Shown here piece by piece: positions 982 through 18,438 of a stretch of 64,000 bases of DNA (its first letter is position 1; each line of letters starts with the position of its first letter). The stretch is taken from assembly GCA_016793245.1 (NCBI GenBank), contig JAEUHW010000057.1, positions 112,709 to 176,708 of the forward strand. The letters are read 5' to 3'. The notes below the pieces were generated by a model that was given only the letters and a program-made list of their open reading frames with translations, did not search any database and was not told the origin of the DNA. A program made the position numbers and the translations under genes. This DNA comes from Planctomycetota bacterium (GTDB lineage Bacteria; Planctomycetota; UBA1135; JADKAF01).

Positions 982-1054
982 GATCGTGGCGACTCCGAAG
1001 GCGAGGGCTTAAGGCCGAAAGCGAGCGAGAGGCAGCGAGTGCGCGAGGGCGCGC

Positions 1055-1594
1055 TCAACGCGGGGCTTCGTAACGCAGCCCGCGCTCGAGCGCGCGCTGC
1101 ACCAGGGTCGGGCGGAGCTCGAAGACGCTCTTCAGCGTACGCGAAGAGGTCCGTCCCCGGATCCTCCAGTCGACGCGGATCTCCGTCAAATACTGGAACT
1201 CGCGCCCCGGGATACGGCGCGCCACGTAAGCGTAGCGCAGGTCGTCGAGTCCGGGGACGCGCAGCTCCTCCTTGTGGGAGAGCTCTTCGGGCAGAGAGCT
1301 CTGCTGGCCCTGGGCCGCTGCGAAGCCGAGCGCTTGATCGTTGAGGGCGCGCTGCACCGCATCGAAGAGGCGCCCTTCCACGTCGTCCAGTACGCGCGGC
1401 AGCGCGTCGCCGGCCTCGGCGCGCACGCGCGCGTCGCGGAGCTGGTCCAAGCCGACCGCGAAGAGGCCGATCACGGCGGTCATCCCCATCATGAGGAGCC
1501 CCATCGCGACCAGCATCTCGACCAAGGTGAAGCCGCGGTTCGCGGCGCCTCGCGCCGCGCGCGTGCTCCGTAGCCCTGCAACGCCGAGCTTCAT
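1055..1594 (-). CDS. minor pseudopilin, GspI-like (prepilin-type N-terminal motif), 179 aa
   Basis: Starts at an internal ATG of track ORF 1055..2404: MKLGVAGLRSTRAARGAANRG|FTLVEMLVAMGLLMMG. This has the G-FTLxE signature with Glu at +5 followed by a hydrophobic helix. ATGA overlap with the upstream stop at 1591-1594. Confidence 0.85.
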   Translation of the reverse strand: MKLGVAGLRSTRAARGAANRGFTLVEMLVAMGLLMMGMTAVIGLFAVGLDQLRDARVRAEAGDALPRVLDDVEGRLFDAVQRALNDQALGFAAAQGQQSSLPEELSHKEELRVPGLDDLRYAYVARRIPGREFQYLTEIRVDWRIRGRTSSRTLKSVFELRPTLVQRALERGLRYEAPR

Positions 1595-2793
1595 CGCTGC
1601 ATGCCTCCGCGCGCCGCGGGCACCCGCACGAAGAGATCGAGCTCGCTGCCGAACCAGATCGGCGTCCCCGGAGCATGCTCCTGCGCGGAGGTGCCGCGCG
1701 CGCCGCGCGCGGCGATCGTGAGGCGCCGTCCGCGCACCGCGGAGATCGCCACCCACTCGGAGCCGATCTTCGCGTAGGTGGCGGCGGTCGGCAGCGCGCG
1801 CGTCGCTCCGCCGACCACGAGGTCGTGCGGCTTGGCACCCCGGTGATCCGCGGCGCCGCTGGTCGCGAGCAAGGAGTCGTTCAAGCGCCACGGCCGGCTG
1901 CGCTCTTCCTCGGAGACGATGGAGATGCTGAGGCGCACGGCTTCGGGATAGACGTCGTTCCGCGCGTCTTGGTCGCCGCGCGTGGAGTCCCAGCCCAGGA
2001 TCGGCGCGCGCACCGCGGTCGACGGCTTCGCGTTGTCGTCGCTCCAGAAGGAGCCCAGGGCCTCGCTCCACTCCGTGAACGACACGCCGGCGCTCTCCCA
2101 ATCCCGCGTCCACTCCGAGCGGAAGAGCCACTCGACGTGCAGGAGCGAGCCCGCGACCTTGCGGAAGATCCCCGCTTCCTCCGTCGCCGGTCCGCCGGCG
2201 AGCGACTGCAAGAGCTCCGCGCGGCGCGGCGGCGCGCCGGCGCCCAAGGGGACCACCGCGCGGTACAGCGCGACCAGCGAGCCGTTCGCCGCGAGCGGAT
2301 CGGGACCGACGACGTAGGTCACGTAGGCCACGCCGCGCGAAGGGATCGCGTCGTACCAGGAGAAGGCCTCCGGCTCTTCGCCGCCCTGCGCCTGCTGCTC
2401 CCATTCGCGCCGCGCCTTGGAGTAGGCCTCCTCCCCCGCGGTGATGAGCGCGAGCGTGCCTTCGTCGAGATGGCCGCGGTAGCGCAGATCGTCGAGGGCG
2501 CGCTGCTGCTCGCCGCTCGAGAGCGAGCGCACGAACCCCATCTCACCGCTGCGGTCGTCGGCGTAGAGCATGCGCCCTTCGCCACCGACGATCGAGGAGA
2601 GGTCGCGCTCGAGGAACGACTTCACCGCGGCCTTCTGCTCCAGCACGTCGCGCGTCTCCTCGCCCTCCTTCCAGAGGTCGAGGCTCGTGTCGAAGAGGCG
2701 CACGACGAGGAGGCCCAGGATCGAGAGCAGCGCCATCGAGACCAGGAGCTCGATCAGCGTGAAGCCGTGTTGCCTCTGCTGCGGATCGCTCAT
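1591..2793 (-). CDS. minor pseudopilin, GspJ-like, enlarged (400 aa)
   Basis: Starts at an internal ATG of ORF 1591..3081: MSDPQQRQHG|FTLIELLVSMALLSILG. ATGA start-stop overlaps at both ends (2790-2793 and 1591-1594). Confidence 0.8.
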   Translation of the reverse strand: MSDPQQRQHGFTLIELLVSMALLSILGLLVVRLFDTSLDLWKEGEETRDVLEQKAAVKSFLERDLSSIVGGEGRMLYADDRSGEMGFVRSLSSGEQQRALDDLRYRGHLDEGTLALITAGEEAYSKARREWEQQAQGGEEPEAFSWYDAIPSRGVAYVTYVVGPDPLAANGSLVALYRAVVPLGAGAPPRRAELLQSLAGGPATEEAGIFRKVAGSLLHVEWLFRSEWTRDWESAGVSFTEWSEALGSFWSDDNAKPSTAVRAPILGWDSTRGDQDARNDVYPEAVRLSISIVSEEERSRPWRLNDSLLATSGAADHRGAKPHDLVVGGATRALPTAATYAKIGSEWVAISAVRGRRLTIAARGARGTSAQEHAPGTPIWFGSELDLFVRVPAARGGMQR

Positions 2794-5700
2794 GGCCGCG
2801 ACTCCCGGAAGAGCACCCGGCTCTCGCTCTGGTACTGCACGCCGATCTCCTCGACGTAGGGCGTTCGCTTCCAGGAGTTCGGCTTGGCACCCGCGACGCG
2901 GAAGCTGCCGGGGCGGTAGCGGAAGAAGATCTTCCCTTCGAGCAACGAACCCGGACGGTTCAGCGGCGAGAAGATCTTCGCCGCGCGATCCCCCTGCGTA
3001 TCGAGCAGCAGGAGATCGCGCGCGGCCTCGGGGTCCTCGATGAGTCGATGGTCCTCGACGCGCGTCGGGATCTCGTCCCACGCCACGCGCACGCCGCCTT
3101 CACCGCGGAGATCGCCGTCGATGCGCACCAGCGCCCAGACGTCGAGGTTCGGATCGCCCCAGACCTCCTCCTTCCAGTGCAGCGCCTGGAAGAAGCTGTC
3201 GCGCGCGGAGACGGCGAAGTGCAGCGCGCTGTTGCCGGCGAGGTCGGCGATGCGGAACTGCGTCTGCCCTTGGTCGGCGACATCGCCCGCGGCGGTGGTG
3301 AGCACCGTGCGATCCCAGTAGCGGAACGGCATGCGGTAGACCACGGAGCCGTTCGTGTGGCTCGCGATCGAGGTGCCGAAGCGCCCGCGATAGGCGCCGG
3401 CGACATAGCCGTTCGTGGAGCGATTGCGCGGGGCGCGGAAGGTGCGCGGCATCGCCAAGGTGGTTGGCGCGTTTGCGTAGGGCGTGTCGTTCCGCGTCGT
3501 GTGCACGAGCTCGTCGTCGATGAGCAAGGTCCCCTGAGTCCAGAAGCCCGCGCCGCTCTCGAGCTGCACCTGGTGGTCGCGCGTGCCGAGCGACTGCGTG
3601 AGCTCGGTCACCTCGAGCGCGGAGAGGAGATAGACCGGATCGCCCGTGCCGTGCGCGCGCGGCGTGGTGCCGAGGAAGCCGCGGCCGCGCGAGCGCGCCA
3701 GCGTGATGCGGAGCCCGTCCGAGCTCTCGTCGAGCTGGCTGTAGACCAGGAGCTCGTCGCCGATGCGCAGCACGCCCGCATCCTGCGGCCAAGCGCGCGA
3801 GGACGCGAGGAAGCCGTTGTTCGGATCGACGACCGTGCCGTAGCTCATCAAGAGCTGCGCGTGGCGCACGACGAGCTGGGTCCCGCCTTCGCTGAGCGGC
3901 TCCGCGAGCACGTAGGTCGCGAGGTTGTCCAAGCTGCCGGCGACGTTGGCCGGCCCGCGCGAGCCGAGGAGATCGAACTCGATCTCGTCGATGAAGCCGT
4001 TGAAGTTGCGGAGTCCCCCGCCGGTCTCGACGATGCCGCTGCCGAGGCGCACCTGTGTCGCGCCATCGGGCAGCTCGCCGCTCGGGAACTTCAGCAACAC
4101 GAGCTCGTCGCGCGAGTCGAGGATCGCCGGGCGGTTCTTCTGCAAGTTCGCAGGATAAGCCTGCTGCAGCGGCTCCTTCAGCGCGACTTCGTAGCGGCCC
4201 GAGCCATTCTCGATCCAGCCCCAGTTGATCGTGTAGCGCGCGAGCGGGGCATTGCCCGCGTTCTCCGGGCGGATCGAGATGCGATCGCCGCGTCCGGGGC
4301 GCGTGCCGGCCAAGGGCAAGCTGGCCCACTGATTGTTCGCCGGCGCCTGTGGATTGAAGGTCGGGAAGCCGGCGAAGGCGACGGCGAACACCGGGTTCAG
4401 ATTCGCGCCCGCGGTGTGGCGATGCTGGAAGGTCCCGTAGCGACCGCGGAACTGCAGCACGTCGTGGATGCGCTGGCTCGCGACGCTCCAGCTCTGCTGC
4501 GGCGGCGCACCGATCCAACCTTGCTGCGCTTGGGGCCAAGTGCCAGGAGACGTCACTTGGGGCCCGAAGTTGCCCACGGTGAAGTAGATCGCGGCCAAGC
4601 GCCCGGGCTCGGAGCGCACGAAGTGGTTCTGGTGGATCTCGTCGTACTCGATCCACTCCGTGTTGCCGTCTTGGCCGCTGGTGTAGATCTGCACGCGGCG
4701 CGAGTCGTTCTGGCCGGGATCGAGGTAGGACGTGGTGTCGGCTTGCGTCGCCTTCACCGAGAGCGGCACGATCCAGAGCCAATTGCGCGGGTCCTGATTC
4801 GGATCCGTGCCGTCGGGCAAGCGGTTCCACTCGGTGACGAACGCGCGCGCGCGCCCGAAGAGCGAATTGGGACCGGTGCCCTGCCCCTGCATGCGCTGGA
4901 GCTGCGTGTAGTTGCGCGTGACGCCGCTCAAGCGATTGCCGGAGCGCCCCGAGTAGCGAATGACCTCGGCGCCGAGCAGCGGCGTGCTCTGCGGCGGCGG
5001 CGTGGTGCCGGTCTCGATCTCGTAGGTCACCTGGTCGCGGTTCACCTGGACTTGGATCGGCCCGGGACCGCGCTGCACGAGCAACGCCAAGCCGCCGCCG
5101 GTCTGGAACGCGGCGAGCTCATCGCCCCCCGCTCCGGTCGGGGCGAGCTCGAGCTGCTGTCCGTCGGTCGCTTCGAGCCCCGTGCCGAGCGGGAACGGCG
5201 GCGCGGGCTGCGTCGGGTTCGTCGAGCTCGTCGGTTGTACGAGGATCTGGGTCGGCCCCTTCACCACGCGCACCACGCCGAACGGCCCGAGATCGCCGTC
5301 GAGCGTGCCGCCGCCGAGCGGGATGTCGGTCGTCGGCATCGACGCGTAGCCGTAGAGCTCGACCAGCGTGCCGACCTCGTGCGCGATGCCGGTGTACTTA
5401 CCGTCTTGGATGCGCAGGCGCACGTTGCGCCCGCCGGTCCAGGCGCTCTCCATCGGCGCGTCGCTGCGCTGCCAGCGACACTGGAACGCCTTGCCGCTGA
5501 TCGAGGTGTACTCGACCAGCTCGTCACCGACGCGCAGGACGCCGCTCGTCGGGAAGCCCTCCACGCTGTCGACGGCCAGACGTTCGTCCGTCGTACCGGC
5601 CGCCGAGGTGAGCCAGGTCACGGCGCGGGCCTTGCCGAGCGGGAAGCCATCGACGAGCACGACCAGGTCGCGCGGCTTCGCTCCGCGCGCGATCGCGCGG

Positions 5701-8174
5701 AAGTGGTACCAGGTGTTCTTCTCGAACACGAAGCGCTCGCCGACGGCCACGCGCACTTCGCAGGCCTCGACGATCGGCGTCACCGGGTCGTCGCCTTGCG
5801 AGTCATAGAGCCGGAAGACGAGCTCCGAGCCTTCGAGCGAGAGCCCGAGCCGACCGCGCTTCTCACCGGTCGCCGCGGACTCGACTTGGAAGAACGCTTG
5901 ATCGCCGACATCCGTCGGGCGGAACCAACCGCCGATCGAGAAGGGCCAGAGGCGCCCGTTCCTCGTCGCGATGCCGACGCGCTGATCGCTCGTCGCCACT
6001 TGCTGCGGGCCGATGCCATCGGAGCCGGTGTTGCGGCCCTCGACCTCGGGCTCGCGCTCGAAGTGCCAGATGCGATTCGTCTGGTAGGGATCCTCGATCG
6101 GCACGGCTTGGAGCTGCGCCCACGAGCGGATCTCGCCTTCCGCGTTCGCGGCGTAGGGATCGCTCTGCTCTTGCTCGCCCGCGCGCGGGATCTCGAAGGG
6201 ATACGAGCGCCCGGGCGGCTGCTGCGTGAGGAAGGGCTCCAGGCGCGACTCCGGCGAACGCGCGAGCAGGAGCGCCCAGCGCTGCGGGATCAGCCACTCC
6301 TGCACGTTGGGTCCGGTGACCATCCAGTGCGCGCCGCGGTTCAAGCGGAAGAGCTCCTCGAGATCGCGCTGATCGCCGAACCACTTGAAGCGCTCGCCGA
6401 CGGGTGCGGCCTGGAAGATCGAGAGCGTCGCTTCACTGCGCCGCGTGACCCCGGCGACGCTGTTGCTGGCCGAGCGCGAATGCGCGCGAAAGAGATCGCC
6501 CGAGTCGAACACGAACGGGACCGTCGCGGCCTCGAGCCCGCCGTCGATCGCGCTGGAGGCGTTCAAGTAGAGCGCGATGCGCTGCTCGGCTTCGATCTCC
6601 GGCCATTCGCCCGGAGCTTCGCTGATGCGCGCGAGCGGATCGAGGAAGCGCTCGACGTAATCGCGCATCGAGAGGAACGGAGCAGTGCTCTGTCGACCCG
6701 CCGAGGACGAGCGCAGCGCGAGGATGATGTCGGCGAGCTGCTCGGCGAGACCGGCGTCGATCGCCTCCGAGGGCTGCGCGAAGCGCCGCCGCACGCCTTG
6801 GAAGCAGGCGATCAGCACGTCGCGCGACGCCGTGTTCACATTCACCGGCGCGGGCACGAGGTAGCGCCCCACGGCACCGCCGTCGCCGTCGATGGTGCCG
6901 ACATCGGAGTGGAACACGATCGGGCCGCGCCCCGTGGCGTTCGCGACCAGGCTCATCTTCAAGTCCGCGGGATCGTCGGCGGCCCCGCGGCTCACCTGCA
7001 GCGTGGCGCCCGCGACGCCCAGGCTGGAATCGAGCTGCAGCGCCGCGGGCAGAGCCCCCGCCGCGCCGCCCGCGCGCAGATCGAGCCAGCGCGTCCACGT
7101 CCCCGCGACGCCGGTGTCGCCGAAGAAGGTGGTCAGCGGCTCCAAGCGGCGGATCAAGCTCGCCGGCAGCAAGCCCTCGGGATCGCCTTCGCCGATCTGC
7201 CGCAGGTCGTCCCACGACTGGAAGCGCCGCAGGAGGAGTCCGTCCTGCGTGCGCCAGCGACAGAGGCGCTGCACGCGATCGTCGAAGATCACCGTGCCCT
7301 GCGGATGCTCGCTCGCCGCGAGGAACGCGAAGCCGCCGACGGCGACGCCGCGCTCGCATTCGAGGAACGACGAGGCCTCGCGCTTCTTGTAGCGGATGAG
7401 CTCGCCGTTCAACCACAGCAGGCCCGCCGGTGGAAAGCCCTCGGTGGAGCTCACGTTCAGCGTGGGATCCTCGGCCTTCACGTCTTCGGCGAGCGTCGTG
7501 ATCCAACCGCGCGCGCCGTCGACGCGCCGGAAGAGATTCGCGAGCGCGAGCGGAGGTGCGGTGTTCAAGTCGAGCCGCGAGCGCTCGTCGGAGACCTCGG
7601 CGGCCCAGATCACCTGAGCGGGATTGCCGCGGTCGTAGAGCCTCTCGCGCTCCAGGCGCTGCTTCTCGTCGCGCGGATCACTGGCGCGCTCGTTCGCGTT
7701 CGGCGGGGAGAAGCGCGCGGCGAGCTCGCGCAGATCGTCCCAACGCGGGGTCTGGTCGCCGCGGCGGAGATGCACCGGATCCAACGGATCGGCGAGGTCG
7801 TCGGCCTCGGAAGCCAGAGCCCCCCTCGCATCTTCCTCAGCGGACTGCACCGCCGCGTTCGCGCGCGCGCTCTCGAAGCGATACGCCGAAGCCTCGGCCT
7901 GGCTGCGCACGGCGAACAGGAACGGCAGCGCCAACGTGAGCAACGTCGCCAACAACAAGATCACCAACACGATGGCATACCCGGATTCGCTCGGCGAAGA
8001 CGGGCAGCTCATACGGTCGCTTTCGCTCGGCGAAAGCGGGCAGCTCACGCGGTCGGATTCGCTCGGCGAAGACGGGCAGCTCCTACGGTCGCTTTCGTTC
8101 GGCGCCGACGGCCCGCGCACCTCGAGGTTCTCGCCCGGAGAGCCGCACCCGTTCCGTTCTTCGATGCCGCTCAT
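2790..8174 (-). CDS. giant GspK-like minor pseudopilin with LamG-like module (1794 aa)
   Basis: Full track ORF. The ATG at 8174 overlaps the upstream stop (ATGA). The hydrophobic N-terminal helix after Gly has no Glu at +5 (ESG|YAIVLVILLLATLLTLALPF), as in GspK. Two GspK-type xNxNTA helix-hairpin motifs are present (RLDLNTAPPLALANLF and VNVNTASRDVLIACFQGV). There is a LamG-like stretch (GGWFRP...LVFRLYD...NTWYHFRAIARG...LVVLVDG). An alternative start is the in-repeat ATG at 8015. Confidence 0.8.
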   Translation of the reverse strand: MSGIEERNGCGSPGENLEVRGPSAPNESDRRSCPSSPSESDRVSCPLSPSESDRMSCPSSPSESGYAIVLVILLLATLLTLALPFLFAVRSQAEASAYRFESARANAAVQSAEEDARGALASEADDLADPLDPVHLRRGDQTPRWDDLRELAARFSPPNANERASDPRDEKQRLERERLYDRGNPAQVIWAAEVSDERSRLDLNTAPPLALANLFRRVDGARGWITTLAEDVKAEDPTLNVSSTEGFPPAGLLWLNGELIRYKKREASSFLECERGVAVGGFAFLAASEHPQGTVIFDDRVQRLCRWRTQDGLLLRRFQSWDDLRQIGEGDPEGLLPASLIRRLEPLTTFFGDTGVAGTWTRWLDLRAGGAAGALPAALQLDSSLGVAGATLQVSRGAADDPADLKMSLVANATGRGPIVFHSDVGTIDGDGGAVGRYLVPAPVNVNTASRDVLIACFQGVRRRFAQPSEAIDAGLAEQLADIILALRSSSAGRQSTAPFLSMRDYVERFLDPLARISEAPGEWPEIEAEQRIALYLNASSAIDGGLEAATVPFVFDSGDLFRAHSRSASNSVAGVTRRSEATLSIFQAAPVGERFKWFGDQRDLEELFRLNRGAHWMVTGPNVQEWLIPQRWALLLARSPESRLEPFLTQQPPGRSYPFEIPRAGEQEQSDPYAANAEGEIRSWAQLQAVPIEDPYQTNRIWHFEREPEVEGRNTGSDGIGPQQVATSDQRVGIATRNGRLWPFSIGGWFRPTDVGDQAFFQVESAATGEKRGRLGLSLEGSELVFRLYDSQGDDPVTPIVEACEVRVAVGERFVFEKNTWYHFRAIARGAKPRDLVVLVDGFPLGKARAVTWLTSAAGTTDERLAVDSVEGFPTSGVLRVGDELVEYTSISGKAFQCRWQRSDAPMESAWTGGRNVRLRIQDGKYTGIAHEVGTLVELYGYASMPTTDIPLGGGTLDGDLGPFGVVRVVKGPTQILVQPTSSTNPTQPAPPFPLGTGLEATDGQQLELAPTGAGGDELAAFQTGGGLALLVQRGPGPIQVQVNRDQVTYEIETGTTPPPQSTPLLGAEVIRYSGRSGNRLSGVTRNYTQLQRMQGQGTGPNSLFGRARAFVTEWNRLPDGTDPNQDPRNWLWIVPLSVKATQADTTSYLDPGQNDSRRVQIYTSGQDGNTEWIEYDEIHQNHFVRSEPGRLAAIYFTVGNFGPQVTSPGTWPQAQQGWIGAPPQQSWSVASQRIHDVLQFRGRYGTFQHRHTAGANLNPVFAVAFAGFPTFNPQAPANNQWASLPLAGTRPGRGDRISIRPENAGNAPLARYTINWGWIENGSGRYEVALKEPLQQAYPANLQKNRPAILDSRDELVLLKFPSGELPDGATQVRLGSGIVETGGGLRNFNGFIDEIEFDLLGSRGPANVAGSLDNLATYVLAEPLSEGGTQLVVRHAQLLMSYGTVVDPNNGFLASSRAWPQDAGVLRIGDELLVYSQLDESSDGLRITLARSRGRGFLGTTPRAHGTGDPVYLLSALEVTELTQSLGTRDHQVQLESGAGFWTQGTLLIDDELVHTTRNDTPYANAPTTLAMPRTFRAPRNRSTNGYVAGAYRGRFGTSIASHTNGSVVYRMPFRYWDRTVLTTAAGDVADQGQTQFRIADLAGNSALHFAVSARDSFFQALHWKEEVWGDPNLDVWALVRIDGDLRGEGGVRVAWDEIPTRVEDHRLIEDPEAARDLLLLDTQGDRAAKIFSPLNRPGSLLEGKIFFRYRPGSFRVAGAKPNSWKRTPYVEEIGVQYQSESRVLFRESRP
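7983..8096 (-). repeat. 36-bp in-frame tandem repeat, about 3.2 copies, in the 5' end of the giant GspK-like gene
   Basis: Units at 7983-8018, 8019-8054 and 8055-8090, plus a degenerate continuation. Units 1 and 3 match at 35/36 positions and unit 2 matches unit 1 at 30/36. The repeat encodes ESDR[RVM]SCP[SL]SPS three times. Confidence 0.9.
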
Positions 8175-9331: not shown

Positions 9332-9341
9332 CGAAGGTCTC

Positions 9342-10001: not shown

Positions 10002-10063
10002 GGGCTTCACCTCGACTGGCTCTTCGTTGTGTCGGCGCCTCGGAGCGGGGCGAGCGACGGATC

Positions 10064-12889: not shown

Positions 12890-12923
12890 GGATCAGACCT
12901 TCAGTGCTGTTGCGGTGGGATGA

Positions 12924-13904
12924 TCAACGCTCGTCATCGGACGGCGCACTCGGAAGCTCGGAGAGCAGACGCGCGACCACGGTGAGCTGGAGCTCGACGT
13001 CGCCGTCCTTGTTCTCGCTGCTGGCCTCGAAGGCGAGGCTCGTCGGCGCTTCGGGCTGCAGCGGCCAGGGACGCCCTTCGCGGCGGAAGTACGCGTTCGC
13101 TCCGCTCTGCCCCTCGATCGGCACGCGATCCTCGCCATCGGCGTTCCGCGCGAGTGCTTCGCCGCCGCTGCCGAGCGCGTCGCTCAGGAAGAGCCGCACG
13201 TGGCGCGAAGAACCGCGCACGGCCAGCTCGACCGAGATCTCCGCCCCGAGGAGTTGCTTCTCATCGGGCGAGGAACGCCGCGTGGCACCGCTGCCCTTGT
13301 CTAGAGCCTTCACCTCGATGGTCAGCTTGTGGTGCGCCGCGAGGTGCAACACGCGATCGGCGAGATCGAGGGCGACGAGGAAGCGCTCGGGACGCGAGAG
13401 CTGCCCCTCGGTCGCCCCGTCCTTCGGATACTTCTCGAAGTGCTCGACGAAGCGCTTGCCGGTCCAGCGCGTCGCGAGCGCCGCGCGCCAGAACGCGTCG
13501 AGCGCGGCGGCGGCTTCCGAGCAGAGGAACGACGGCTGCGGCGTGCCCTTCGGCACCACGAAGGAGACGTCGCTCCGGAAGGGCCAGGTCGTGCGGCTCA
13601 CGAAGTGCGCGGCTTCGGCGTAGGCGCGGAACGCCTGCTCCTCGCGCTCGGCTTCGCGCGCGAGCGCGCGCCCCGCGTCCTCGGCATAGAGCCCGACCGG
13701 CGCGCGACGCGCGCCCGCGGGGCGCGGCTTCGGCGGCGGGCTCGTCACCGAAGTGCTCGAGCGTTGGATCGAAGCGCGGAGCTTCGCGGCCTGCTCCTCG
13801 GCGCCGCCGATCAACGTGCACTTCGCGAGCAGGAAGACGATCGCACTCGCGAGCACGCCGAGGATGAAGGTCTTGTGCGACTGCCAGATCTCGTTCAGGT
13901 CCAT
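12924..13904 (-). CDS. single-pass membrane protein in the GspM/PilO position
   Basis: Full track ORF. Short cytoplasmic N-terminus, a TM helix (TFILGVLASAIVFLLA), then a periplasmic domain. It lies 20 bp downstream of the PilM-PilN fusion. The assignment is mainly positional. Confidence 0.65.
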   Translation of the reverse strand: MDLNEIWQSHKTFILGVLASAIVFLLAKCTLIGGAEEQAAKLRASIQRSSTSVTSPPPKPRPAGARRAPVGLYAEDAGRALAREAEREEQAFRAYAEAAHFVSRTTWPFRSDVSFVVPKGTPQPSFLCSEAAAALDAFWRAALATRWTGKRFVEHFEKYPKDGATEGQLSRPERFLVALDLADRVLHLAAHHKLTIEVKALDKGSGATRRSSPDEKQLLGAEISVELAVRGSSRHVRLFLSDALGSGGEALARNADGEDRVPIEGQSGANAYFRREGRPWPLQPEAPTSLAFEASSENKDGDVELQLTVVARLLSELPSAPSDDER

Positions 13905-13923
13905 GAGGTTCGCGTGCGCGGGA

Positions 13924-15627
13924 TCACCGCGACTTCTCGCCCTCCGTCTCCGCCTCGGCGACTTCCGCGTCGGGCTCCACTTCGCGCGTCGGCGCGAAGG
14001 GATCGATCTCGAGCACCAGCGACGCGCGCTTCATCGCCTGCGGCACCTTCGCGCCTTCGAGCACGCGGCATTGCTGCGGCGAGAAGCGACCCGGCGCGAG
14101 GAGACCGTTCTCGTAGAAGGAGCGGCGATCGCGCGCCCAGTCGCCGCCTCGTTGCATGTAGTGGATGGCGATGTGCACGACCGGCCGTCCGTCGACGCCC
14201 GAGCCTCCGGCGCTCGAGACGCGCGCGAGCTGCGCACGCTCGATGGTGAAGTCCTCGGGCAGGACGCTCTGCACGGTCTCCAGCGCGCCGAGCAGCGCGG
14301 GAGCCGCTTGCAGCCACGGCTCGAGGTGCGCCGAGCGCCCCCAGAGCTCGGTGAAGGACTCCGCCGCGCGCGTCGCCTGCTGGTCGGCGGCGAGCAGCGC
14401 GCTCACGCGCGCGTTGTGCGTCTTCTGGTAGCGCTCGAGGATGCCCCGCGTCTCCGCTGCGCGATCGTAGGCCAGGATCAGGTACGCGATCGCGATCACT
14501 CCCGCGGCGACGAGGAAGCTCGTGCGCTGCAGCAGGTTTCGCCGCCGCGCGAGCGACGGCGGCACGATCTCGAGCTGATAGAGCTTGGCGTCGGCTTCCG
14601 CCAGCGCGTGCCCCAGCGCGACGACCGCTTCGAGGCGCTGCGCCTCGATAGCCTCGAAGACCTCGTCCGGGAGCTCGGAGAGATCGATGTCATCGAAGGG
14701 ATCGAAGAGCTCGACCGGGATGCCGGTCGTCGCGGCGAGATAGGCGCAGAGGCCGCCGGTCCGGGCGCCGCCGCCGCAGAGCAGGATGCGATCGACCTTC
14801 AGCTCGGAGATCTTCGCCTGCGTGCGCGCGAACATCTGCGCGCTCTGCAGCAGCGAGTTCAACTGGCCCGCGGGAGCGAGCAAGGCCTGCGTGACCTTCT
14901 CGGCCTTCGGGCTTGCGTAGCTGCCTTTCTTCGCCGGGTCGAGGTCGGCTTGGTCGCGGAGCATCGCGATCGCCTCCTCGCGCGAGACGCGCATCTTCTC
15001 GCGCAAGGTCTCGACGAAGAAGCGCGCGCCGCCCGAGAGGTTGCGGGCGAAGTAGAGGTCGGTGCCATTCGCGATGGCGACGTCGGTGTTCTCCTCGCCG
15101 ATCGAAGCGAGGAGCACCGTGCTGCCGCCTTCGGGGTTCGTGCGGACCCAGGCATCGAAGAGCGCGACCGCGTTCGGGGAGAAGCCCTTCGCGCGCAGCT
15201 TGGTCGAGGACTTGAGCTCGCTCGCGAGCTCCTCGAGGAGCGAGGCCTTGGTGAGCGCGATGCCGACGGTGACCTCGTCGGAGAGGCTCGGCGGGTGCAG
15301 GAGATTGAACCCACCCACGATGTCGCCGCCGGATTGCTCGTTCAGCTCCGAGATCTCGAAGCTCACGAACTTCTCGAGCTGCGCGTTCCCCGTATCGGGG
15401 ATCTGCAGGTAGCGGAACATCGCGTCGCGCCCCGTGACGCCGATGCGCGCCGCCCCCGGCTTCACGCGCGCGCCATCCAGCGCCGCGACCAGCGCCTCGG
15501 TGGCGGGCTCACCGCTCCGCGGCGCGCTCACGAAAGCGCTGAGCGTGAACACGCCTTTCTTGTCGTAGCCCTGGAGGATGCGCACCGCCGTGGTGCCGAC
15601 GTCGATCCCAGTCGCGAGCTTCGCCAC
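13924..15627 (-). CDS. PilM-PilN fusion protein (GspL-like architecture)
   Basis: Actin-fold ATPase motifs GIDVGTTAVRIL and ILLCGGGARTGGL are followed by a TM helix (TSFLVAAGVIAIAYLILAY) and a periplasmic PilN-like part. I set the start at GTG 15627, which is preceded by GAGGTGATC. GTG 15633 or ATG 15765 are also possible. Confidence 0.85.
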   Translation of the reverse strand: MAKLATGIDVGTTAVRILQGYDKKGVFTLSAFVSAPRSGEPATEALVAALDGARVKPGAARIGVTGRDAMFRYLQIPDTGNAQLEKFVSFEISELNEQSGGDIVGGFNLLHPPSLSDEVTVGIALTKASLLEELASELKSSTKLRAKGFSPNAVALFDAWVRTNPEGGSTVLLASIGEENTDVAIANGTDLYFARNLSGGARFFVETLREKMRVSREEAIAMLRDQADLDPAKKGSYASPKAEKVTQALLAPAGQLNSLLQSAQMFARTQAKISELKVDRILLCGGGARTGGLCAYLAATTGIPVELFDPFDDIDLSELPDEVFEAIEAQRLEAVVALGHALAEADAKLYQLEIVPPSLARRRNLLQRTSFLVAAGVIAIAYLILAYDRAAETRGILERYQKTHNARVSALLAADQQATRAAESFTELWGRSAHLEPWLQAAPALLGALETVQSVLPEDFTIERAQLARVSSAGGSGVDGRPVVHIAIHYMQRGGDWARDRRSFYENGLLAPGRFSPQQCRVLEGAKVPQAMKRASLVLEIDPFAPTREVEPDAEVAEAETEGEKSR

Positions 15628-15715
15628 GATCACCTCGAACAGGATGGCGCGAGGAACAGAACCAGCCGCCGCCCCAGCGCGGGCGCGGACGCGTGAACCA
15701 GAGCTGCGGAGGCGC

Positions 15716-18091
15716 TCATTGCGCGCGCGACCGCAAGTGCTCCGCCAGCGGCGAAGGAGAGGCATCGCCGCTCGCCGCGCGCCGTTGGCTCAGGTCGTCG
15801 GCGAGCTGCAGCAGCGCCGCGCGGCGCGGGTCGGAGACGGCGGCGGCTTCGAGGCCGGCGCGCAGATTCGCGCGGAGGCGGTCGATCTCCGGACCGTAGC
15901 TCGTCGCCTGGTAGATCTCGGCGAGGCCCTGCGTTTCCTCGATCTGCGTGAGCAGCGCGCGCAGCTCGTCGGGCGATCCCACGGCGAGCGCCTGCTCCGC
16001 GCGCCGGCGCACCGCATCGAAGCGCTGCACCGCCGAGGCCATCGACTCGCCGAGCTGCTTCACCAGCGGCCCGTATTGATTGCGCACCACGACTTCCACG
16101 TTCGTGCGCGCGCGCTTGGCGTTCGCGTTCGGCACGAGCACGGCGCGATCGAGCACGCCGCGCAGCGTGGCCACGGCGGCGCCGATGCGCCCGGCGGACG
16201 CGTGGCCTTGCGCGGTGCGCTTCGCCGTCTCCACCTCGAGATCGCTCGGCGCATCGATCGGACCGAGCGTCACCGAGAGGTTCTCCTCGGCGCCGAGCTC
16301 GGCCCAGAGCGAGACCAGGACGCCGCCGCGCACGCGGCGCGTCTCGGCGCGCACGGGGCGATCGAGGCGCAAGGCGCTGCGCAGCTCGAAGCTGCCGAAA
16401 CCGAGGCCGACGACGCCGTCCAGGACTTCGTCCGAGGCCCCGACCGCGGGATAGGCGTCGCCGCTGCGACGCGCCGCGGCGTCCTCGTCCAGGATCCAGT
16501 TGGCGACGAGCTCATCGCCGCCGAAGCGCGCCGTCGCTTCGTCCTCGCTGCCCCCGAGCAAGACGCCGGGGAGCACGAACGAGACGGGCGGCAGAGGTCC
16601 GGCTCCCGCGCGGCCGAGCTTCAACACCACGACGTGGCGCGATCCGCGCGGCGCCTTGGTCCAGCTCCAGCGCAGGTCGATCGGACCGGAGCCGTCGCGC
16701 AGATAGCTGGCCGGGATGCGCCGCGTCCCGCTCGCGCCGGCGGCGAGCAGCGGCGCGAAATTGGGGTCCATCCACAGCGGGCGCGCGGACTCGAGCGGCA
16801 CGAACACGAGATCGCGCACCAAGGCCAAGCGGCGCGACTCGCCGCGGTGGGACCAGCGACCGACGAGCGCGCTGCCCAAGCCGGACCAGACGAAGTGGAA
16901 CCGGCCGTCGCCGTCGAGCTCGACGCGCTCGGGCTGGGCGATCCCCTGGGTCGGCGCGGCGCTGCCCGGGGGCGGCAGAGCGACCGTCGCCCCGTCGAAA
17001 TGCACGTTCCCGCCGCGAGCGCTCCACGCGAGCAAGCCGAGGTCGAAGTTCGCTTCCCCCGCGGCTTCGTCGAGCTGCGCCACGCGGAGTGCCAGCTTCT
17101 TCCAGCCGGGCGCCTCCTCCGCGGCCGGGGCGTCCGCGAAGAGCGCCCCGCGGGTCACCGTCGCCGGCGAGGTCGGATCGTCGTCCACTTGGTAGCGGGC
17201 GGCGAAGGCAGCCCCGGCTTCGGCGTCGGCGCGTGCGAGCACCGTGAAGTCGAGAGCTTCTCCGGCGGCCAGACTAGGAATGCGGTTCTGGGCGAGGGCG
17301 ACGCCGACCGAGGGCACGTAGCGTTCTCCCAAGGCCGACGACAGCGCGACCTTGAGACAGCGCTGTCCTTCCGCCGCTCCGCTGGTGGTGCGGGTCGCTT
17401 CGCCGGAGCTCCCCGCGATGGTCTCCCAGGAGACCGCGGGGTCGCGCTCCTCGAGCTCGAAGCCAGCGTCGCTGCCGAGCGAGATGCGCGAGGGCAGAGG
17501 CGCATCGTCGGTCTCGCCGACCAGGCGTGCCGCGGGCGACTCGCCGCGCAGCACGAAGAACCCGAGGGCGAGCACGAGAGCAGCTCCCGCTCCGCCGATG
17601 GCCAACGCCTTCAGCTCTTCCGAGCGACCGCTCGACGCGCCCTCGTCGTCCGCGGACGCTGCCCGCGTCGAGGAAGCGCGCGCGGGCCCCGGAGCGGCCG
17701 AGGGCGAGGGCGAGCTCGCGACCGCGGCGGCGCTCTCGCTGGCGCGAGCCGCCGGCTCGGGTCGAGCGATCCCGACGCCCGTCTTGCCCGCGTCCCCGGC
17801 GCGATCGAGGCGCAACCGGATCTTGCCGATCTGGAAGCTTCCGCCGATCTCGACCCGGGCGTGCTCGACTCTTTCTCCGTCGACGAAGGTGCCGTTGGTG
17901 CTGCCCAGGTCCTCCACCTCGAGCACGATCCCTTCGAGCTTCAGGAGCGCGTGCTTGCTGGAGACCGAGCCGTCCTTCAGCAAGAGGTCGCTGCCGGGAG
18001 CGCGACCGATGGTCAGCCGGTTGGAGCGCAGCGCGAAGCGCTCGCCGTCGCGCTCGCCGCCCTCGATCACGAGAACCAGGTCGGACGCCAT
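15716..18091 (-). CDS. FHA-domain membrane protein with periplasmic CBM-like jelly-roll domain (791 aa)
   Basis: Starts at internal ATG 18091 (AGGTGAG upstream) of ORF 15716..18331. FHA signature: RLTIGRAPGSDLLLKDGSVSSKHALLKLEG...VEDLGSTNGTFVDGERV. This is followed by a Ser/Ala/Pro linker, a TM helix (ALAIGGAGAALVLALGFFVL) and a large periplasmic region. First gene of the operon. Confidence 0.85.
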   Translation of the reverse strand: MASDLVLVIEGGERDGERFALRSNRLTIGRAPGSDLLLKDGSVSSKHALLKLEGIVLEVEDLGSTNGTFVDGERVEHARVEIGGSFQIGKIRLRLDRAGDAGKTGVGIARPEPAARASESAAAVASSPSPSAAPGPARASSTRAASADDEGASSGRSEELKALAIGGAGAALVLALGFFVLRGESPAARLVGETDDAPLPSRISLGSDAGFELEERDPAVSWETIAGSSGEATRTTSGAAEGQRCLKVALSSALGERYVPSVGVALAQNRIPSLAAGEALDFTVLARADAEAGAAFAARYQVDDDPTSPATVTRGALFADAPAAEEAPGWKKLALRVAQLDEAAGEANFDLGLLAWSARGGNVHFDGATVALPPPGSAAPTQGIAQPERVELDGDGRFHFVWSGLGSALVGRWSHRGESRRLALVRDLVFVPLESARPLWMDPNFAPLLAAGASGTRRIPASYLRDGSGPIDLRWSWTKAPRGSRHVVVLKLGRAGAGPLPPVSFVLPGVLLGGSEDEATARFGGDELVANWILDEDAAARRSGDAYPAVGASDEVLDGVVGLGFGSFELRSALRLDRPVRAETRRVRGGVLVSLWAELGAEENLSVTLGPIDAPSDLEVETAKRTAQGHASAGRIGAAVATLRGVLDRAVLVPNANAKRARTNVEVVVRNQYGPLVKQLGESMASAVQRFDAVRRRAEQALAVGSPDELRALLTQIEETQGLAEIYQATSYGPEIDRLRANLRAGLEAAAVSDPRRAALLQLADDLSQRRAASGDASPSPLAEHLRSRAQ

Positions 18092-18438
18092 GCTCACCTG
18101 TGCTGCTGGGAACCTTGGATCGAGGAGGAGCCCGTCGCGGCCCGCGGAGGCGGGAGGTTCGCGAGACGGTGCTGCCGGGGAGAGGAGGAAAGCGCGAGTC
18201 GAGAAAGGGAGGACACAGCAGAGATCGCCGAGGGCCGCGGAGCTCCGCGCTCGAGGCGCCGCAGCTCGAAGAGCTCGTCTCCGCGTGCCGCTATCGCTCG
18301 CCGCGCCGTCGGTAACCAGCGACTCGGCCAACGGATGCGGCGCATGCTAGCGTTGCGCGACGGCGGCCGTCAAAGGCCGCGCCGACGCGAGCCGCGAGGC
18401 TCGCGCTCACGCGTTCCCGATACGACCGCGACTCACGA

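What the first reader, a model, noticed from the sequence alone, without database searches (positions are those of the whole stretch)
1055..18091. FHA-headed T2SS/T4P-like pseudopilus operon with no motor, platform, secretin or peptidase in cis
Nine co-directional, tightly spaced genes (three ATGA overlaps, gaps of 90 bp or less) run in this order:
- an FHA-TM-jelly-roll protein
- a PilM-PilN fusion (GspL-like)
- a single-TM protein in the GspM/PilO position
- a 941-aa TM-TPR-jelly-roll protein
- five pseudopilins: four with the prepilin signature G|FTL[IVL]E[LM]L (GspG-like 219 aa, GspH-like 386 aa, GspJ-like 400 aa, GspI-like 179 aa) and a 1794-aa GspK-like protein with a hydrophobic helix lacking Glu+5

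The order L-M-x-G-H-K-J-I is not the canonical gspC-O order. Every minor pseudopilin looks clearly larger than the family norm as I recall it, with the GspK-like protein about 5x. No GspE/PilB ATPase, GspF/PilC platform, secretin or prepilin peptidase is adjacent: upstream is a divergent rsmE, and downstream is only a secreted hypothetical protein. Lectin-like jelly-roll modules (LamG/ConA/CBM type) occur in four of the nine proteins. That points to a glycan-binding fibre or surface-attachment apparatus rather than a textbook T2SS.
Basis: partly seen in the sequence, partly recalled or inferred. Interest (0 to 1): 0.85.

Follow-up and report, generated by a model that had tools for sequence, protein, structure and literature searches.

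The report
Motor-less pilus operon, giant tip protein
This is a real, strongly conserved gene cluster of an understudied group of Planctomycetota that encodes the membrane platform and subunits of a pilus-like fibre capped by an unusually large, probably sugar-binding tip protein, while the motor, pore and processing enzyme must be supplied from elsewhere in the genome.

Summary
Nine co-directional minus-strand genes (18091 to 1055) encode:
- an FHA-TM protein
- a PilM-TM-PilN-like fusion
- a PilO-like protein
- a TM-TPR protein
- four prepilins with G|FTLxE
- a 1794-aa GspK-like protein without Glu5

The same order and sizes recur in about 60-84 species-level Planctomycetota genomes at 25-30% identity. 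One is the cultured Engelhardtia mirabilis. So this is a functional unit, not chance.

Corrections:
- The unit is at least ten genes. The "secreted hypothetical" downstream (window 1-981, cut by the window edge) is a conserved member.
- In most genomes a PpiC-type rotamase and ScpB follow tightly.
- Lectin-like modules are supported in three proteins, not four.

No GspE/PilB-type ATPase lies in the 64-kb window or within 10 kb in 83 related loci. A preprint lists PilB, PilC, PilD, PilQ and PilT for E. mirabilis at another locus.

Best reading: a T2SS-type pilin set and GspL/M-like platform that builds a fibre tipped by a fused "GspK plus adhesin" giant, powered in trans and probably gated through FHA. 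I could not find it described.

Verdict: a new variant of a known kind, of moderate to good interest.

The parts
18344..18373 (-). Sigma-70-like promoter match (TTGACG-18-TAGCAT) about 250 nt upstream of gene A
   Evidence: It is the only such match in 1-19500 (0.5 expected from shuffles), and no better-than-chance terminators lie inside the cluster. This is a consensus match only, not evidence of function.
15716..18091 (-). A: cytoplasmic FHA domain, one TM helix (aa 163-181), a periplasmic CBM4/22-like beta-sandwich and a long helical C-terminal part (791 aa)
   Evidence: FHA and Yop-YscD_cpl hit in the window copy and in 41/41 orthologues. A profile of the periplasmic domain hits phage fibre gp20 at 9.5e-6, a hyaluronate lyase CBM and an endoglucanase at 3e-4, and xylanase/laminarinase CBM4.
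13924..15627 (-). B: PilM-like actin-fold domain, TM helix (aa 369-387) and a periplasmic tail of about 180 aa. This is a GspL-like PilM-PilN-type fusion (567 aa).
   Evidence: Pfam PilM_2 3.4e-12, TIGR01175 pilM 4e-15, NCBIfam Amuc_1101_fam 1.1e-24 (87 bits, cut-off 650). TM. 70 close homologues of 540-570 aa all carry PF11104. The PilN fold of the tail was not tested.
12924..13904 (-). C: bitopic protein (TM aa 14-32) in the PilO/GspM position (326 aa; about 267 aa in relatives)
   Evidence: No Pfam or NCBIfam hit. A profile of 48 orthologues has M. xanthus PilO (3jc8 chain Oa) as top PDB hit, E 0.0034. The position between B and D is conserved in 63 loci.
10064..12889 (-). D: N-terminal TM anchor, proline-rich linker, TPR array and a beta-rich C-terminal domain of about 250 aa with unassigned fold (941 aa)
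   Evidence: TPR hits are weak in the window copy and strong in 39/41 orthologues. TM. The C-terminal domain has no informative PDB hit. hhalign against the LamG of F gives only 23% probability.
9342..10001 (-). E: GspG-like major (pseudo)pilin with an insertion (219 aa)
   Evidence: N_methyl hit. G|FTLIE with Glu5 in 68/68 orthologues with the motif. Pfam T2SSG in 14/50 orthologues, best 5e-6. The family profile hits the GspG 5wda N-terminus at 6e-14. The consensus C-terminus D.WG.P.AYF...LLSAG.DG.FGTDDDI is.
8171..9331 (-). F: GspH-position modular pilin carrying a LamG (concanavalin-A-like) module (386 aa)
   Evidence: N_methyl 5e-6 and weak Laminin_G_3. The family profile hits laminin alpha1 LG4-5 at 1.3e-8, plus neurexin and SHBG. 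Laminin_G_3 is recorded for orthologues in L003 and L088. Glu5 in 72/73.
2790..8174 (-). G: giant GspK-like cap protein (1794 aa). It has a prepilin-like hydrophobic N-terminus without Glu5, HhH motifs, a LamG-like module, about 5 copies of a 60-aa module, and a conserved extreme C-terminus.
   Evidence: T2SS_GspK in 22/25 family members (1.4e-10) and T2SSK in 7/25. The motif PVNVNTAS aligns to XcpX 5vtm. No Glu5 in 74 orthologues. Foldseek gives LamG/neurexin top hits for the AF2 model of aa 61-1000. ATGA coupling to F and H is conserved in at least 80% of loci. Only 423 clusters (50% identity) in 1.84 billion match aa 620-1794.
1591..2793 (-). H: GspJ-like minor pilin with one C-terminal copy of the 60-aa module found in G (400 aa)
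   Evidence: N_methyl 2.7e-9. Among orthologues, 11/42 hit Verru_Chthon cassette protein C (1.2e-8) and 6/42 hit gspJ. Glu5 in 66/66.
1055..1594 (-). I: GspI-like small minor pilin (179 aa)
   Evidence: N_methyl 4e-7. Verru_Chthon cassette protein B 8e-7 (29 bits, cut-off 51). XpsI and PilV hits are weak. Glu5 in 72/72 orthologues.
1..981 (-). J: tenth conserved gene, truncated by the window edge (327 of about 533 aa visible). It has a signal-peptide-like N-terminus, a helical/TPR-like middle and, in full-length relatives, a C-terminal CxxCxGxG...CxxCxG zinc-finger motif.
   Evidence: Present directly after I in 73-74 loci with a median gap of 7 nt. The cysteines are invariant in 40 orthologues. 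DnaJ_CXXCXGXG hits 2/40 and TPR hits a few.

Best explanation
**What it is**
The cluster is the cis-encoded half of a type IV filament machine. It is specific to a Planctomycetota lineage that includes Engelhardtia mirabilis.

**Shown**
- It encodes an inner-membrane assembly platform: B (PilM-TM-PilN-type fusion, GspL-like) and C (PilO/GspM-like).
- It encodes two further bitopic envelope proteins: A (FHA, TM, CBM-like domain, helical part) and D (TM, TPR).
- It encodes a full T2SS-style pilin set: GspG-like major subunit E, and H-, J- and I-like minor pilins F, H and I.
- It encodes G, a GspK-like subunit of about 1800 aa that lacks Glu5.

**Inferred mechanism**
1. A PilD-type peptidase encoded elsewhere cleaves E, F, H, I and probably G after the conserved Gly.
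2. I, H, G and F form the tip (initiation) complex. G sits at the apex because it lacks Glu5.
3. G acts as a fused 'minor pilin K plus tip adhesin'. This is analogous to PilX+PilY1 in T4aP, or to CpaL in Tad pili. Its LamG module and five 60-aa modules are exposed at the tip. Its conserved extreme C-terminus possibly returns to complete the pilin-like domain.
4. E polymerises beneath the tip on the B/C platform. Polymerisation is driven by a PilB/GspE-type ATPase and a PilC/GspF platform protein encoded in trans. The fibre leaves through a trans-encoded secretin.
5. A, and perhaps the co-directional Ser/Thr kinase upstream, couples assembly to phospho-threonine signalling. A's periplasmic part and D bridge the platform to the wall and outer membrane. 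They take the place of the GspC/PilP that is missing.
6. J (zinc-finger motif) and the rotamase that follows it in relatives may help fold or export the very large G.

**Likely output**
A surface fibre that binds glycans or surfaces, rather than a secretion piston.
For: - Gene content, topology and family matches.
- Class III signal peptides are conserved, with Glu5 in E, F, H and I and never in G.
- Synteny, gene sizes and translational coupling are conserved in about 60-84 species-level genomes at 25-30% identity. These include a cultured strain. The flanks are housekeeping genes (rsmE, ScpB), which indicates vertical inheritance.
- No GspE-type Walker A motif occurs in 83 loci or in the window.
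- E. mirabilis, which carries the operon (L017), is reported to encode PilA, PilB, PilC, PilD, PilT/U, PilQ, PilO and PilM in a different cluster (10.1101/817700, Tables S2/S3).
- Literature framework:
  - HIJK tip complexes are capped by K, which lacks Glu5, and modular pilins can carry lectin modules (PMC9934059).
  - K-family proteins or tip adhesins supply a C-terminal beta-strand, and CpaL has the layout pilin-like N-terminus, large middle, C-terminal strand (PMC12918778).
- The G family is discrete and constant in size, 1.6-2.0 kaa.
Against: - No ATPase, platform protein, secretin or peptidase could be assigned to this system. Their existence in trans comes from a preprint about one relative, not from this genome.
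- Sharing an ATPase between two filament systems is not an established rule.
- The GspK fold of G's N-terminal part was not recovered by Foldseek. Both AF2 models are poor (pLDDT 55 and 60). The last 850 aa have no structural match.
- The PilO assignment of C is weak (E 0.0034).
- The PilN fold of B's tail and the fold of D's C-terminus are untested or inconclusive.
- Glycan binding, fibre formation, surface exposure, FHA-kinase coupling and a single transcript are all untested.
- The CBM-like module of A is predicted to be periplasmic. It may bind the cell's own wall rather than external glycans.
Confidence: 0.55

Rival explanations
1. It is an ordinary type II secretion system whose genes are split between loci. 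This operon gives C-like/L/M/G/H/I/J/K, and gspD, gspE, gspF and gspO lie elsewhere. The short periplasmic pseudopilus pushes folded exoproteins through a secretin, and the large modules on the minor pseudopilins recognise substrates.
For: - The pilin set is T2SS-like: T2SSG in 14/50 E orthologues, T2SS_GspK in 22/25 G members, gspJ-type hits for H.
- B has GspL-like fused topology.
- Split T2SS loci with a shared PilD are documented in Legionella (PMC6617341).
Against: - A cap protein of 1600-2000 aa with five or more extra modules is about six times the size of GspK. It resembles tip adhesins of surface pili (PilY1, CpaL) more than a piston tip.
- No GspC (HR/PDZ) homologue was detected.
- All equivalog cut-offs for Gsp families are missed by a wide margin.
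- No gspD/E/F was seen within 10 kb in any of 83 loci. This neither supports nor excludes the idea.
Confidence: 0.2
2. It is an accessory module of the canonical T4aP machine. It supplies an alternative tip complex and alternative alignment proteins, which re-programme the existing PilB/PilC/PilQ machine to build a different, adhesive pilus. This would resemble the several minor-pilin/PilY1 clusters of Myxococcus xanthus.
For: - E. mirabilis is reported to have one T4aP locus with PilB/C/D/Q/T.
- This operon has no motor of its own.
- Alternative minor-pilin/PilY1 sets are an established concept (cited in PMC9934059 and PMC12918778).
Against: - The operon carries its own major pilin (E) and its own PilM-N/PilO-like pair. 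It also has two extra envelope proteins (A, D). This looks like a separate basal body rather than a swap-in tip set.
- The pilins are GspG/K-like, not PilA/PilX-like.
Confidence: 0.15
3. The genes are not one functional unit. The arrangement is a chance or lineage-frozen juxtaposition of pilin-like and membrane proteins, or the large ORFs are artefacts of a 70% GC genome.
For: - High GC produces many long spurious ORFs.
- C, D and G have no above-threshold Pfam hits in the window copy.
Against: - GC3 of 0.83-0.90 in the called frames.
- The same order, lengths and start/stop overlaps occur in 60-84 genomes at 25-30% protein identity.
- Motifs are invariant across orthologues.
Confidence: 0.02

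Closest known systems
Type II secretion system: GspG-K pseudopilus with the GspL/GspM assembly platform
   Same: - GspG-like major subunit.
- H-, I- and J-like minor subunits with G|FTLxE.
- K-like cap without Glu5, with the (P)VNVNTA helix-hairpin-helix motif.
- A fused cytoplasmic actin-like domain, TM and periplasmic domain, as in GspL.
- A bitopic PilO/GspM-like partner.
   Different: - Gene order is L-M-x-G-H-K-J-I.
- Every pilin is 1.6-5.8 times the model length.
- There is no GspC.
- FHA-TM and TM-TPR proteins are added, and a tenth zinc-finger protein.
- D/E/F/O are not in cis in any of 83 loci.
- All NCBIfam equivalog cut-offs are missed.
T4aP tip complex: minor pilins PilV/W/X (PilI/J/K) plus the non-pilin adhesin PilY1/PilC (P. 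aeruginosa, N. gonorrhoeae, M. xanthus)
   Same: - An I-J-K initiation complex topped by a very large adhesive protein.
- Operons of minor pilins are often separate from pilB/C/D.
   Different: - Here the large protein is itself the K-type pilin, a fusion-like design.
- No PilY1 beta-propeller family hit was found (Pfam).
- The major pilin and the PilM/N/O-like genes sit in the same operon.
Tad pilus CpaL/TadG (PMC12918778)
   Same: - A pilin-like N-terminal domain lacking the usual features.
- A large middle region.
- A conserved extreme C-terminus proposed to complete the pilin domain.
- The protein acts at the tip.
   Different: - CpaL is about 600 aa, while G is about 1800 aa.
- The surrounding machinery is T2SS/T4aP-like, not Tad.
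- The strand-complementation role of G's C-terminus is only an inference here.
Modular pilins of Streptococcus sanguinis (PilC with a concanavalin-A-like lectin module, PilB with vWA; PMC9934059, PMC8179133)
   Same: F, and G too, is a pilin with a grafted LamG/ConA-like module that would be displayed at the fibre tip.
   Different: - The host is a diderm.
- The modules sit on H- and K-type subunits.
- There are several additional unknown modules.
- Glycan binding is untested.
Verru_Chthon cassette (TIGR02596, TIGR02598, TIGR02599, TIGR02600), an uncharacterised pilin-like cassette of Verrucomicrobia/Chthoniobacter
   Same: - H orthologues hit cassette protein C (11/42, best 1.2e-8).
- I hits protein B (8e-7).
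- F hits protein D weakly.
- From memory of the TIGRFAMs description, that cassette also pairs three prepilin-like proteins with one very large protein.
   Different: - All scores are far below the family cut-offs.
- No G member hits TIGR02600.
- From memory of the TIGRFAMs description, that cassette has no PilM/N/O-like, FHA or TPR genes.
Akkermansia Amuc_1098-1102 pilus-like cluster (NCBIfam Amuc_1101 family, PilM-like protein)
   Same: The best NCBIfam match of B is the roughly 600-aa PilM-like fusion family of this other PVC bacterium (1.1e-24, aa 46-456).
   Different: - The score is 87 bits against a cut-off of 650.
- C does not hit Amuc_1100 structures.
- D is not a secretin.
- The pilin complement is different.
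Legionella pneumophila lsp genes (T2SS split over five loci, PilD shared with T4P; PMC6617341)
   Same: It is a precedent for a filament system whose pseudopilin/L/M genes are unlinked from the ATPase, secretin and peptidase genes.
   Different: Legionella proteins are canonical in size and family membership, and all its parts are identified.

Membership tests
Type II secretion system (Gsp) | Major pseudopilin of the GspG family | tested here: inconclusive
   The window E scores 30.6 bits on TIGR01710 (cut-off 88.85, N-terminus only). Pfam T2SSG is matched by 14/50 orthologues, best 5e-6. The consensus has a GspG-like C-terminal motif.
Type II secretion system (Gsp) | Minor pseudopilins H, I, J and a K subunit lacking Glu5 | tested here: met
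   N_methyl is above cut-off in F, H and I. Glu5 is conserved in them and absent in G. T2SS_GspK hits 22/25 G members at up to 1.4e-10. All are below equivalog cut-offs, so they are K/J/I-like in kind, not orthologues of Gsp proteins.
Type II secretion system (Gsp) | GspL and GspM inner-membrane platform | tested here: inconclusive
   B has GspL-like topology (PilM-like domain, TM, periplasmic tail) but matches PilM models, not GspL. The C family's top PDB hit is PilO at E 0.0034.
Type II secretion system (Gsp) | GspE ATPase, GspF platform, GspD secretin, GspO peptidase and GspC in the system | tested here: not met
   None is in the 64-kb window. No GspE-type Walker A occurs in 83 related loci with 10-kb flanks. 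No Pfam hits to these families appear among called neighbours. Presence elsewhere in this genome could not be tested.
Type IVa pilus (Pil) | PilM, PilN, PilO, PilP alignment complex with PilQ secretin | tested here: inconclusive
   The PilM domain is met (TIGR01175 4e-15, below the cut-off of 133). PilN is fused and untested. The PilO-like assignment is weak. No PilP and no PilQ were found.
Type IVa pilus (Pil) | PilB/PilT ATPases and PilC platform; PilY1 beta-propeller tip adhesin | tested here: not met
   They are absent in cis. No PilY1/Neisseria_PilC Pfam hit occurs in G or its 24 homologues. In E. mirabilis PilB/C/T are reported at another locus.
Verru_Chthon cassette (TIGR02596/8/9/600) | Scores above the TIGRFAM cut-offs for proteins A-D | tested here: not met
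   I scores 29.3 against 51.4, H 24.3 against 256.5 and F 17.3 against 70. No G member hits TIGR02600.
Amuc_1101 family PilM-like pilus complex protein | Score above the NCBIfam equivalog cut-off (650 bits) | tested here: not met
   87.3 bits.
Modular type IV pilins (pilin moiety plus grafted functional module) | Class III signal peptide followed by a pilin moiety and an identifiable extra domain | tested here: met
   F has N_methyl plus LamG. G has a K-like N-terminus plus a LamG-like module and repeated 60-aa modules. H has N_methyl plus one 60-aa module.
K-family tip proteins with C-terminal beta-strand complementation (GspK, CpaL) | The extreme C-terminal strand inserts into the N-terminal pilin-like beta-sheet | not testable with these tools
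   G exceeds the 1200-aa limit for structure prediction, and chimeric constructs cannot be submitted. Only conservation of the C-terminus (W1768, K1769, Y1753 invariant) is shown.

The most novel reading that the evidence does not exclude
This operon defines a distinct, so far unnamed family of type IV filament machines. The family is restricted to the Engelhardtia/Saltatorellus-related Planctomycetota.

Its features would be:
- an FHA-gated basal body (A-B-C-D) with no GspC/PilP
- a single-polypeptide 'K plus adhesin' tip of about 190 kDa
- dedicated folding helpers (a zinc-finger protein and a rotamase)
- either a hijacked T4aP motor or a non-canonical energy source

Because it is core and vertically inherited in a lineage described as shape-shifting and forming trunk-like protrusions, it might underlie those surface behaviours.
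Probability: 0.15. Interest if true: 0.8.

Novelty: new variant of a known kind. Interest (0 to 1): 0.55.

Why it matters
- **A natural fusion.** Type IV filaments are among the most widespread bacterial surface machines. How their tip complexes start assembly and carry adhesins is an active question. Here evolution has apparently fused the capping minor pilin (K) to a giant multi-module adhesin, and has hung lectin-type modules on other tip subunits.
- **A direct test.** This offers a natural test of the 'C-terminal strand licenses assembly' model and of the modular-pilin concept in a diderm.
- **How machines can be partitioned.** A complete pilin and platform set can be kept as a core, vertically inherited operon for a long time without its own motor, pore or peptidase. 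That bears on how such machines are partitioned and shared.
- **It can be tested in the laboratory.** A cultured carrier, Engelhardtia mirabilis Pla133, exists.
- **Regulation.** The FHA-headed membrane component next to a Ser/Thr kinase suggests a phosphorylation switch for fibre assembly. Few such switches are known.

Tried and rejected
**Led nowhere or gave little**
- An exact look-up of G in the assembly index found nothing on record.
- A literature search for 'Verru_Chthon cassette' gave 0 papers. Searches combining Planctomycetes with pili, FHA or T2SS terms found no description of this operon.
- A PDB profile search with full-length G gave only a 19-residue HhH match to XcpX, E 0.47.
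- AF2 of G in two halves gave low confidence, pLDDT 54.8 and 60.0:
  - Foldseek on the N-terminal half recovered only the LamG module, not a GspK fold.
  - Foldseek on the C-terminal half gave no credible match.
- For the C-terminal domain of D there was no informative PDB hit. hhalign gave 23% against the LamG of F and 4% against the CBM of A. The fourth 'jelly roll' is therefore unconfirmed.
- Rfam found nothing in the window.

**Considered and rejected**
- D as a TPR-secretin like Amuc_1098. Only the TPR part matches, at E 0.09, and there is no Secretin domain.
- G as a member of TIGR02600. There is no hit.
- The conserved Clp-type AAA+ upstream as the motor. It is a ClpB-D2-type AAA_2 protein, transcribed divergently, and absent from the upstream flank of L006 (its flank in L005 is fragmented).
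- A mobile island. The flanks are housekeeping genes (rsmE, RadC, rotamase, ScpB) and are conserved.

**Not attempted or not possible**
- No query available to me could have targeted the motor genes of this particular genome.

Full report
**1. What is in the sequence**

The window is about 70% GC, so long spurious ORFs abound. They translate into the proteins described.

| Gene | Coordinates | Length |
|---|---|---|
| A | 15716-18091 | 791 aa |
| B | 13924-15627 | 567 aa |
| C | 12924-13904 | 326 aa |
| D | 10064-12889 | 941 aa |
| E | 9342-10001 | 219 aa |
| F | 8171-9331 | 386 aa |
| G | 2790-8174 | 1794 aa |
| H | 1591-2793 | 400 aa |
| I | 1055-1594 | 179 aa |

Intergenic gaps are 88, 19, 34, 62 and 10 nt. 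F/G, G/H and H/I overlap by ATGA.

**2. Family assignments**

- **A.** It has an N-terminal FHA domain (Pfam FHA 5e-15, Yop-YscD_cpl 7e-17) and one TM helix at aa 163-181. It also has a periplasmic domain whose family profile hits carbohydrate-binding beta-sandwiches. These are a phage central fibre at 9.5e-6, a hyaluronate lyase CBM and an endoglucanase at about 3e-4, and xylanase and laminarinase CBM4 modules.
- **B.** It matches PilM (PilM_2 3.4e-12, TIGR01175 4e-15). Its best NCBIfam match is the PVC-specific fused PilM-like family Amuc_1101, at 87 bits, far below the cut-off. A TM helix at aa 369-387 and a tail of about 180 aa give it GspL-like topology.
- **C.** It has no library hit. 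A profile of 48 orthologues has M. xanthus PilO as its top PDB match, E 0.0034.
- **D.** It is a membrane-anchored TPR protein. TPR hits are strong in 39/41 orthologues. The fold of its C-terminal domain stays unassigned.
- **E, F, H, I.** All pass Pfam's N_methyl threshold. The motif G|F-T-L-x-E was found in 68, 73, 66 and 72 orthologues of E, F, H and I. Glu5 follows it in all of them except one F sequence.
- **E.** It is GspG-like. T2SSG hits 14/50 orthologues, and the consensus has the motif D.WG.P.Y...S.G.DG..GT.DDI.
- **F.** It carries a LamG domain (family profile against laminin LG4-5, 1.3e-8).
- **H.** It is J-like. It is also related to the Verrucomicrobial 'cassette protein C'.
- **I.** It is I-like and related to 'cassette protein B'.
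- **G.** Its hydrophobic N-terminus follows a conserved Gly, and position +5 is A, I, T, S, L or M, never Glu.
  - 22/25 family members hit NCBIfam T2SS_GspK (best 1.4e-10), and 7/25 hit Pfam T2SSK.
  - Its PVNVNTAS motif aligns with the helix-hairpin-helix of XcpX.

**3. The giant protein G**

- A word-indexed search found only 24 homologues, all 1717-1757 aa.
- An exhaustive phmmer of aa 620-1794 against 1.84 billion representatives found 423 clusters with E up to 0.001. The best 150 are either 1.6-2.0 kaa or fragments.
- So G belongs to a discrete, rare family of constant size.
- AF2 models of the two halves are of low confidence.
  - The N-terminal half contains a beta-sandwich whose Foldseek neighbours are uniformly LamG/neurexin LNS domains. 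This agrees with the Laminin_G_3 hit to one of the 25 family members, and with a Laminin_G_3 mark on record for one homologue in each.
  - The C-terminal half has no credible neighbour.
- An HMM built from the C-terminal 75 aa of H finds a module of about 60 aa in G. Its consensus is FP..G.LRIG.ELIRY....GN.L.GL.RG..GT.A..H..G..V.
  - It occurs on average 4.5 times per G orthologue.
  - In the window protein the copies lie at aa 239-295, 866-900, 1055-1088, 1456-1522 and 1537-1613.
  - It resembles a domain of GTA and phage tail-tip proteins only faintly.
- The extreme C-terminus of G is conserved (invariant W1768, K1769 and Y1753).

**4. Conservation and true extent**

- The closest relative (93% identity) lies on a 7.06-Mb contig of a Planctomycetota MAG.
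- One scan of species-representative genomes found 161 genomes with a G relative. The 80 loci fetched are nearly all labelled Planctomycetota, apart from a few unclassified or gammaproteobacterial-labelled MAG records. They include the cultured Engelhardtia mirabilis Pla133.
- tblastn and all-against-all ORF clustering were run on these loci. The results:
  - The same order A to I recurs with near-identical gene lengths.
  - Median gaps are 12 nt or less.
  - ATGA-type F/G and G/H overlaps occur in at least 80% of loci.
- A tenth gene J follows I in 73-74 loci. In the window it is the ORF running from about 981 to position 1, cut by the window edge.
  - J has a signal-peptide-like N-terminus, a helical middle and invariant CxxCxGxG...CxxCxG cysteines.
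- A PpiC-type rotamase (64 loci) and ScpB (59 loci) follow co-directionally. In L088 their start and stop codons overlap.
- rsmE is divergent upstream in at least 38 loci.
- These housekeeping flanks argue for an old, vertically inherited core operon, not an island.
- A single sigma-70-like match lies upstream of A, and there is no convincing internal terminator. This is compatible with one transcript but does not prove it.

**5. What is missing**

- The rest of the window encodes the following:
  - RadC, a TPR protein, a Ser/Thr kinase and a Clp-type AAA+ protein
  - a SurA-like rotamase, NifS, a PMT-type glycosyltransferase and an amine oxidase
  - DegT-GNAT, a CarboxypepD_reg repeat protein and an MreB/actin-like protein
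  - a ParA-like protein, pyruvate kinase, HU, YajC, a sugar transferase and SerA
- The only credible P-loop in all six frames is the Clp-type AAA+.
- No G[PSA]TGSGK[ST]T motif occurs in any ORF of 83 related loci with 10-kb flanks.
- No T2SSE, T2SSF, Secretin or Peptidase_A24 annotation appears among called neighbours.
- The absence of motor, platform, secretin and peptidase in cis is thus a conserved property.
- I could not search the rest of this genome.
- For E. mirabilis, the Saltatorellota preprint lists PilA-like, PilC-like, PilB, PilU-like, PilD-like, PilQ, PilO and PilM at Pla133_38790-39050, and says the strains also encode PilT. That region has different neighbours (L21/L27, Rne, HPr). 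The preprint does not list the present operon (10.1101/817700).
- So at least one carrier has all the missing functions in trans, together with a second, canonical PilM/O set.

**6. Mechanism proposed**

Shown: the parts list, the topology, the conservation, and the Glu5 pattern.

Inferred from established knowledge of type IV filaments:
- HIJK complexes initiate assembly and sit at the tip, and K caps them because it lacks Glu5 (PMC9934059).
- K-family proteins or tip adhesins supply a C-terminal strand that licenses assembly, and CpaL has the layout pilin-like N-terminus, large middle, C-terminal strand (PMC12918778).

The proposal:
1. I, H, G and F form a tip complex in which G is a fused K-plus-adhesin.
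2. E polymerises beneath it on the B/C platform.
3. The ATPase, platform protein, secretin and PilD act in trans.
4. A and D replace the missing GspC/PilP-type connectors. The FHA domain of A gives a phospho-threonine input. The kinase two genes further upstream is a candidate partner, and the same kinase and AAA+ pair is seen in L003 and L004.
5. J and the rotamase are candidate periplasmic folding helpers for the 190-kDa cap.

The LamG modules make glycan or surface binding the most likely output. This is not shown.

**7. Rivals**

- **A split but otherwise ordinary T2SS.** This is the main alternative. Split loci have a precedent in Legionella (PMC6617341), and the pilins are Gsp-like. The size and modularity of the cap argue for a surface adhesive fibre instead.
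- **A swap-in module for the canonical T4aP machine.** This is possible, but it does not explain the operon's own major pilin and its own PilM-N/PilO pair.
- **A chance arrangement.** The synteny excludes this.

**8. Comparison and novelty**

- The system works like a T2SS/T4P hybrid. It is not a member of any curated family: every equivalog or subfamily cut-off is missed.
- The nearest named relatives are the uncharacterised Verru_Chthon cassette pilins and the Amuc_1101 PilM-like family of other PVC bacteria.
- The ingredients are known individually: modular pilins, giant tip proteins, unlinked motors and FHA-headed membrane components.
- I could not find the combination described. That combination is:
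  - a K subunit of about 1800 aa
  - an FHA-TM-CBM protein
  - a TM-TPR protein
  - a zinc-finger tenth gene
  - a conserved lack of a motor in cis
- It is conserved in at least 161 species-level genomes.
- I rate it a new variant of a known kind. Interest is moderate to good. It is helped by the existence of a cultured carrier. It is limited by poor structural models and by the unresolved source of the motor.

Noticed in passing
window 7986-8111 (minus-strand gene G, codons about 22-63): A 36-bp tandem repeat (3.5 copies, 82% matches) encodes SCPSSPSESDR-type repeats. They give G a leader of about 65 aa before the conserved Gly. The median leader in orthologues is about 16 aa, and the 93%-identical MAG copy was called 42 aa shorter.
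   Followed up: partly
window G aa 239-295, 866-900, 1055-1088, 1456-1522, 1537-1613; H aa 331-395: A module of about 60 aa is shared by G (about 4.5 copies per orthologue) and the C-terminus of H. It resembles only faintly a GTA/phage tail-tip domain (Pfam Rcc01698_C E 0.0025; PDB 8rk3 tip attachment protein J E 0.056). Its fold and role are unknown.
   Followed up: partly
window 22282-23709 (-) and 23700-25001 (+); L003 1068-3703: A Ser/Thr protein kinase runs co-directional with the operon, and a divergent single-domain Clp-type AAA+ (AAA_2 + ClpB_D2-small) lies next to it. The pair sits upstream both here and in a distant relative. The kinase is a candidate partner for the FHA domain of A.
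   Followed up: partly
L087 1-470 (-): In a divergent variant of the operon, where G is 2042 aa, the gene upstream and divergent is an FHA-domain sigma-54 activator (FHA + Sigma54_activat + HTH_8). This hints at phospho-threonine-dependent transcriptional control.
   Followed up: no
L090 3481-9219: A 1912-aa protein shares only the C-terminal part of G (query aa 615-1171 of the 1175-aa slice). It lies outside any pilin operon, between an HtrA-like protease and EF-P. So the C-terminal modules of G also occur in other contexts.
   Followed up: no
window 40444-41577 (-): An MreB/actin-like ATPase gene (Pfam MreB_Mbl 2.7e-17, Actin 4.9e-10). The Saltatorellota preprint describes a MamK-like actin ('saltatorellin') in this lineage. 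Whether this is that gene was not checked.
   Followed up: no
L088 16225-19270; L007 17074-19684: Downstream of J, a PpiC-type rotamase and then ScpB follow with overlapping or nearly abutting start and stop codons in many genomes. The transcription unit may therefore reach 11-12 genes and include a chromosome-segregation gene.
   Followed up: partly
window 10999-11099 (-): ARAGORN calls a 101-nt tRNA-Gly(TCC) inside the coding sequence of gene D. Rfam finds nothing there, so it is most likely a false positive.
   Followed up: partly
window 31189-43155 and 58810-60342: A group of envelope-glycan genes lies further upstream: a PMT_2 glycosyltransferase, an amine oxidase, a DegT aminotransferase-GNAT fusion, a CarboxypepD_reg repeat protein, a ParA/tyrosine-kinase-like P-loop protein and a Bac_transf sugar transferase. 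No link to the operon was tested.
   Followed up: no
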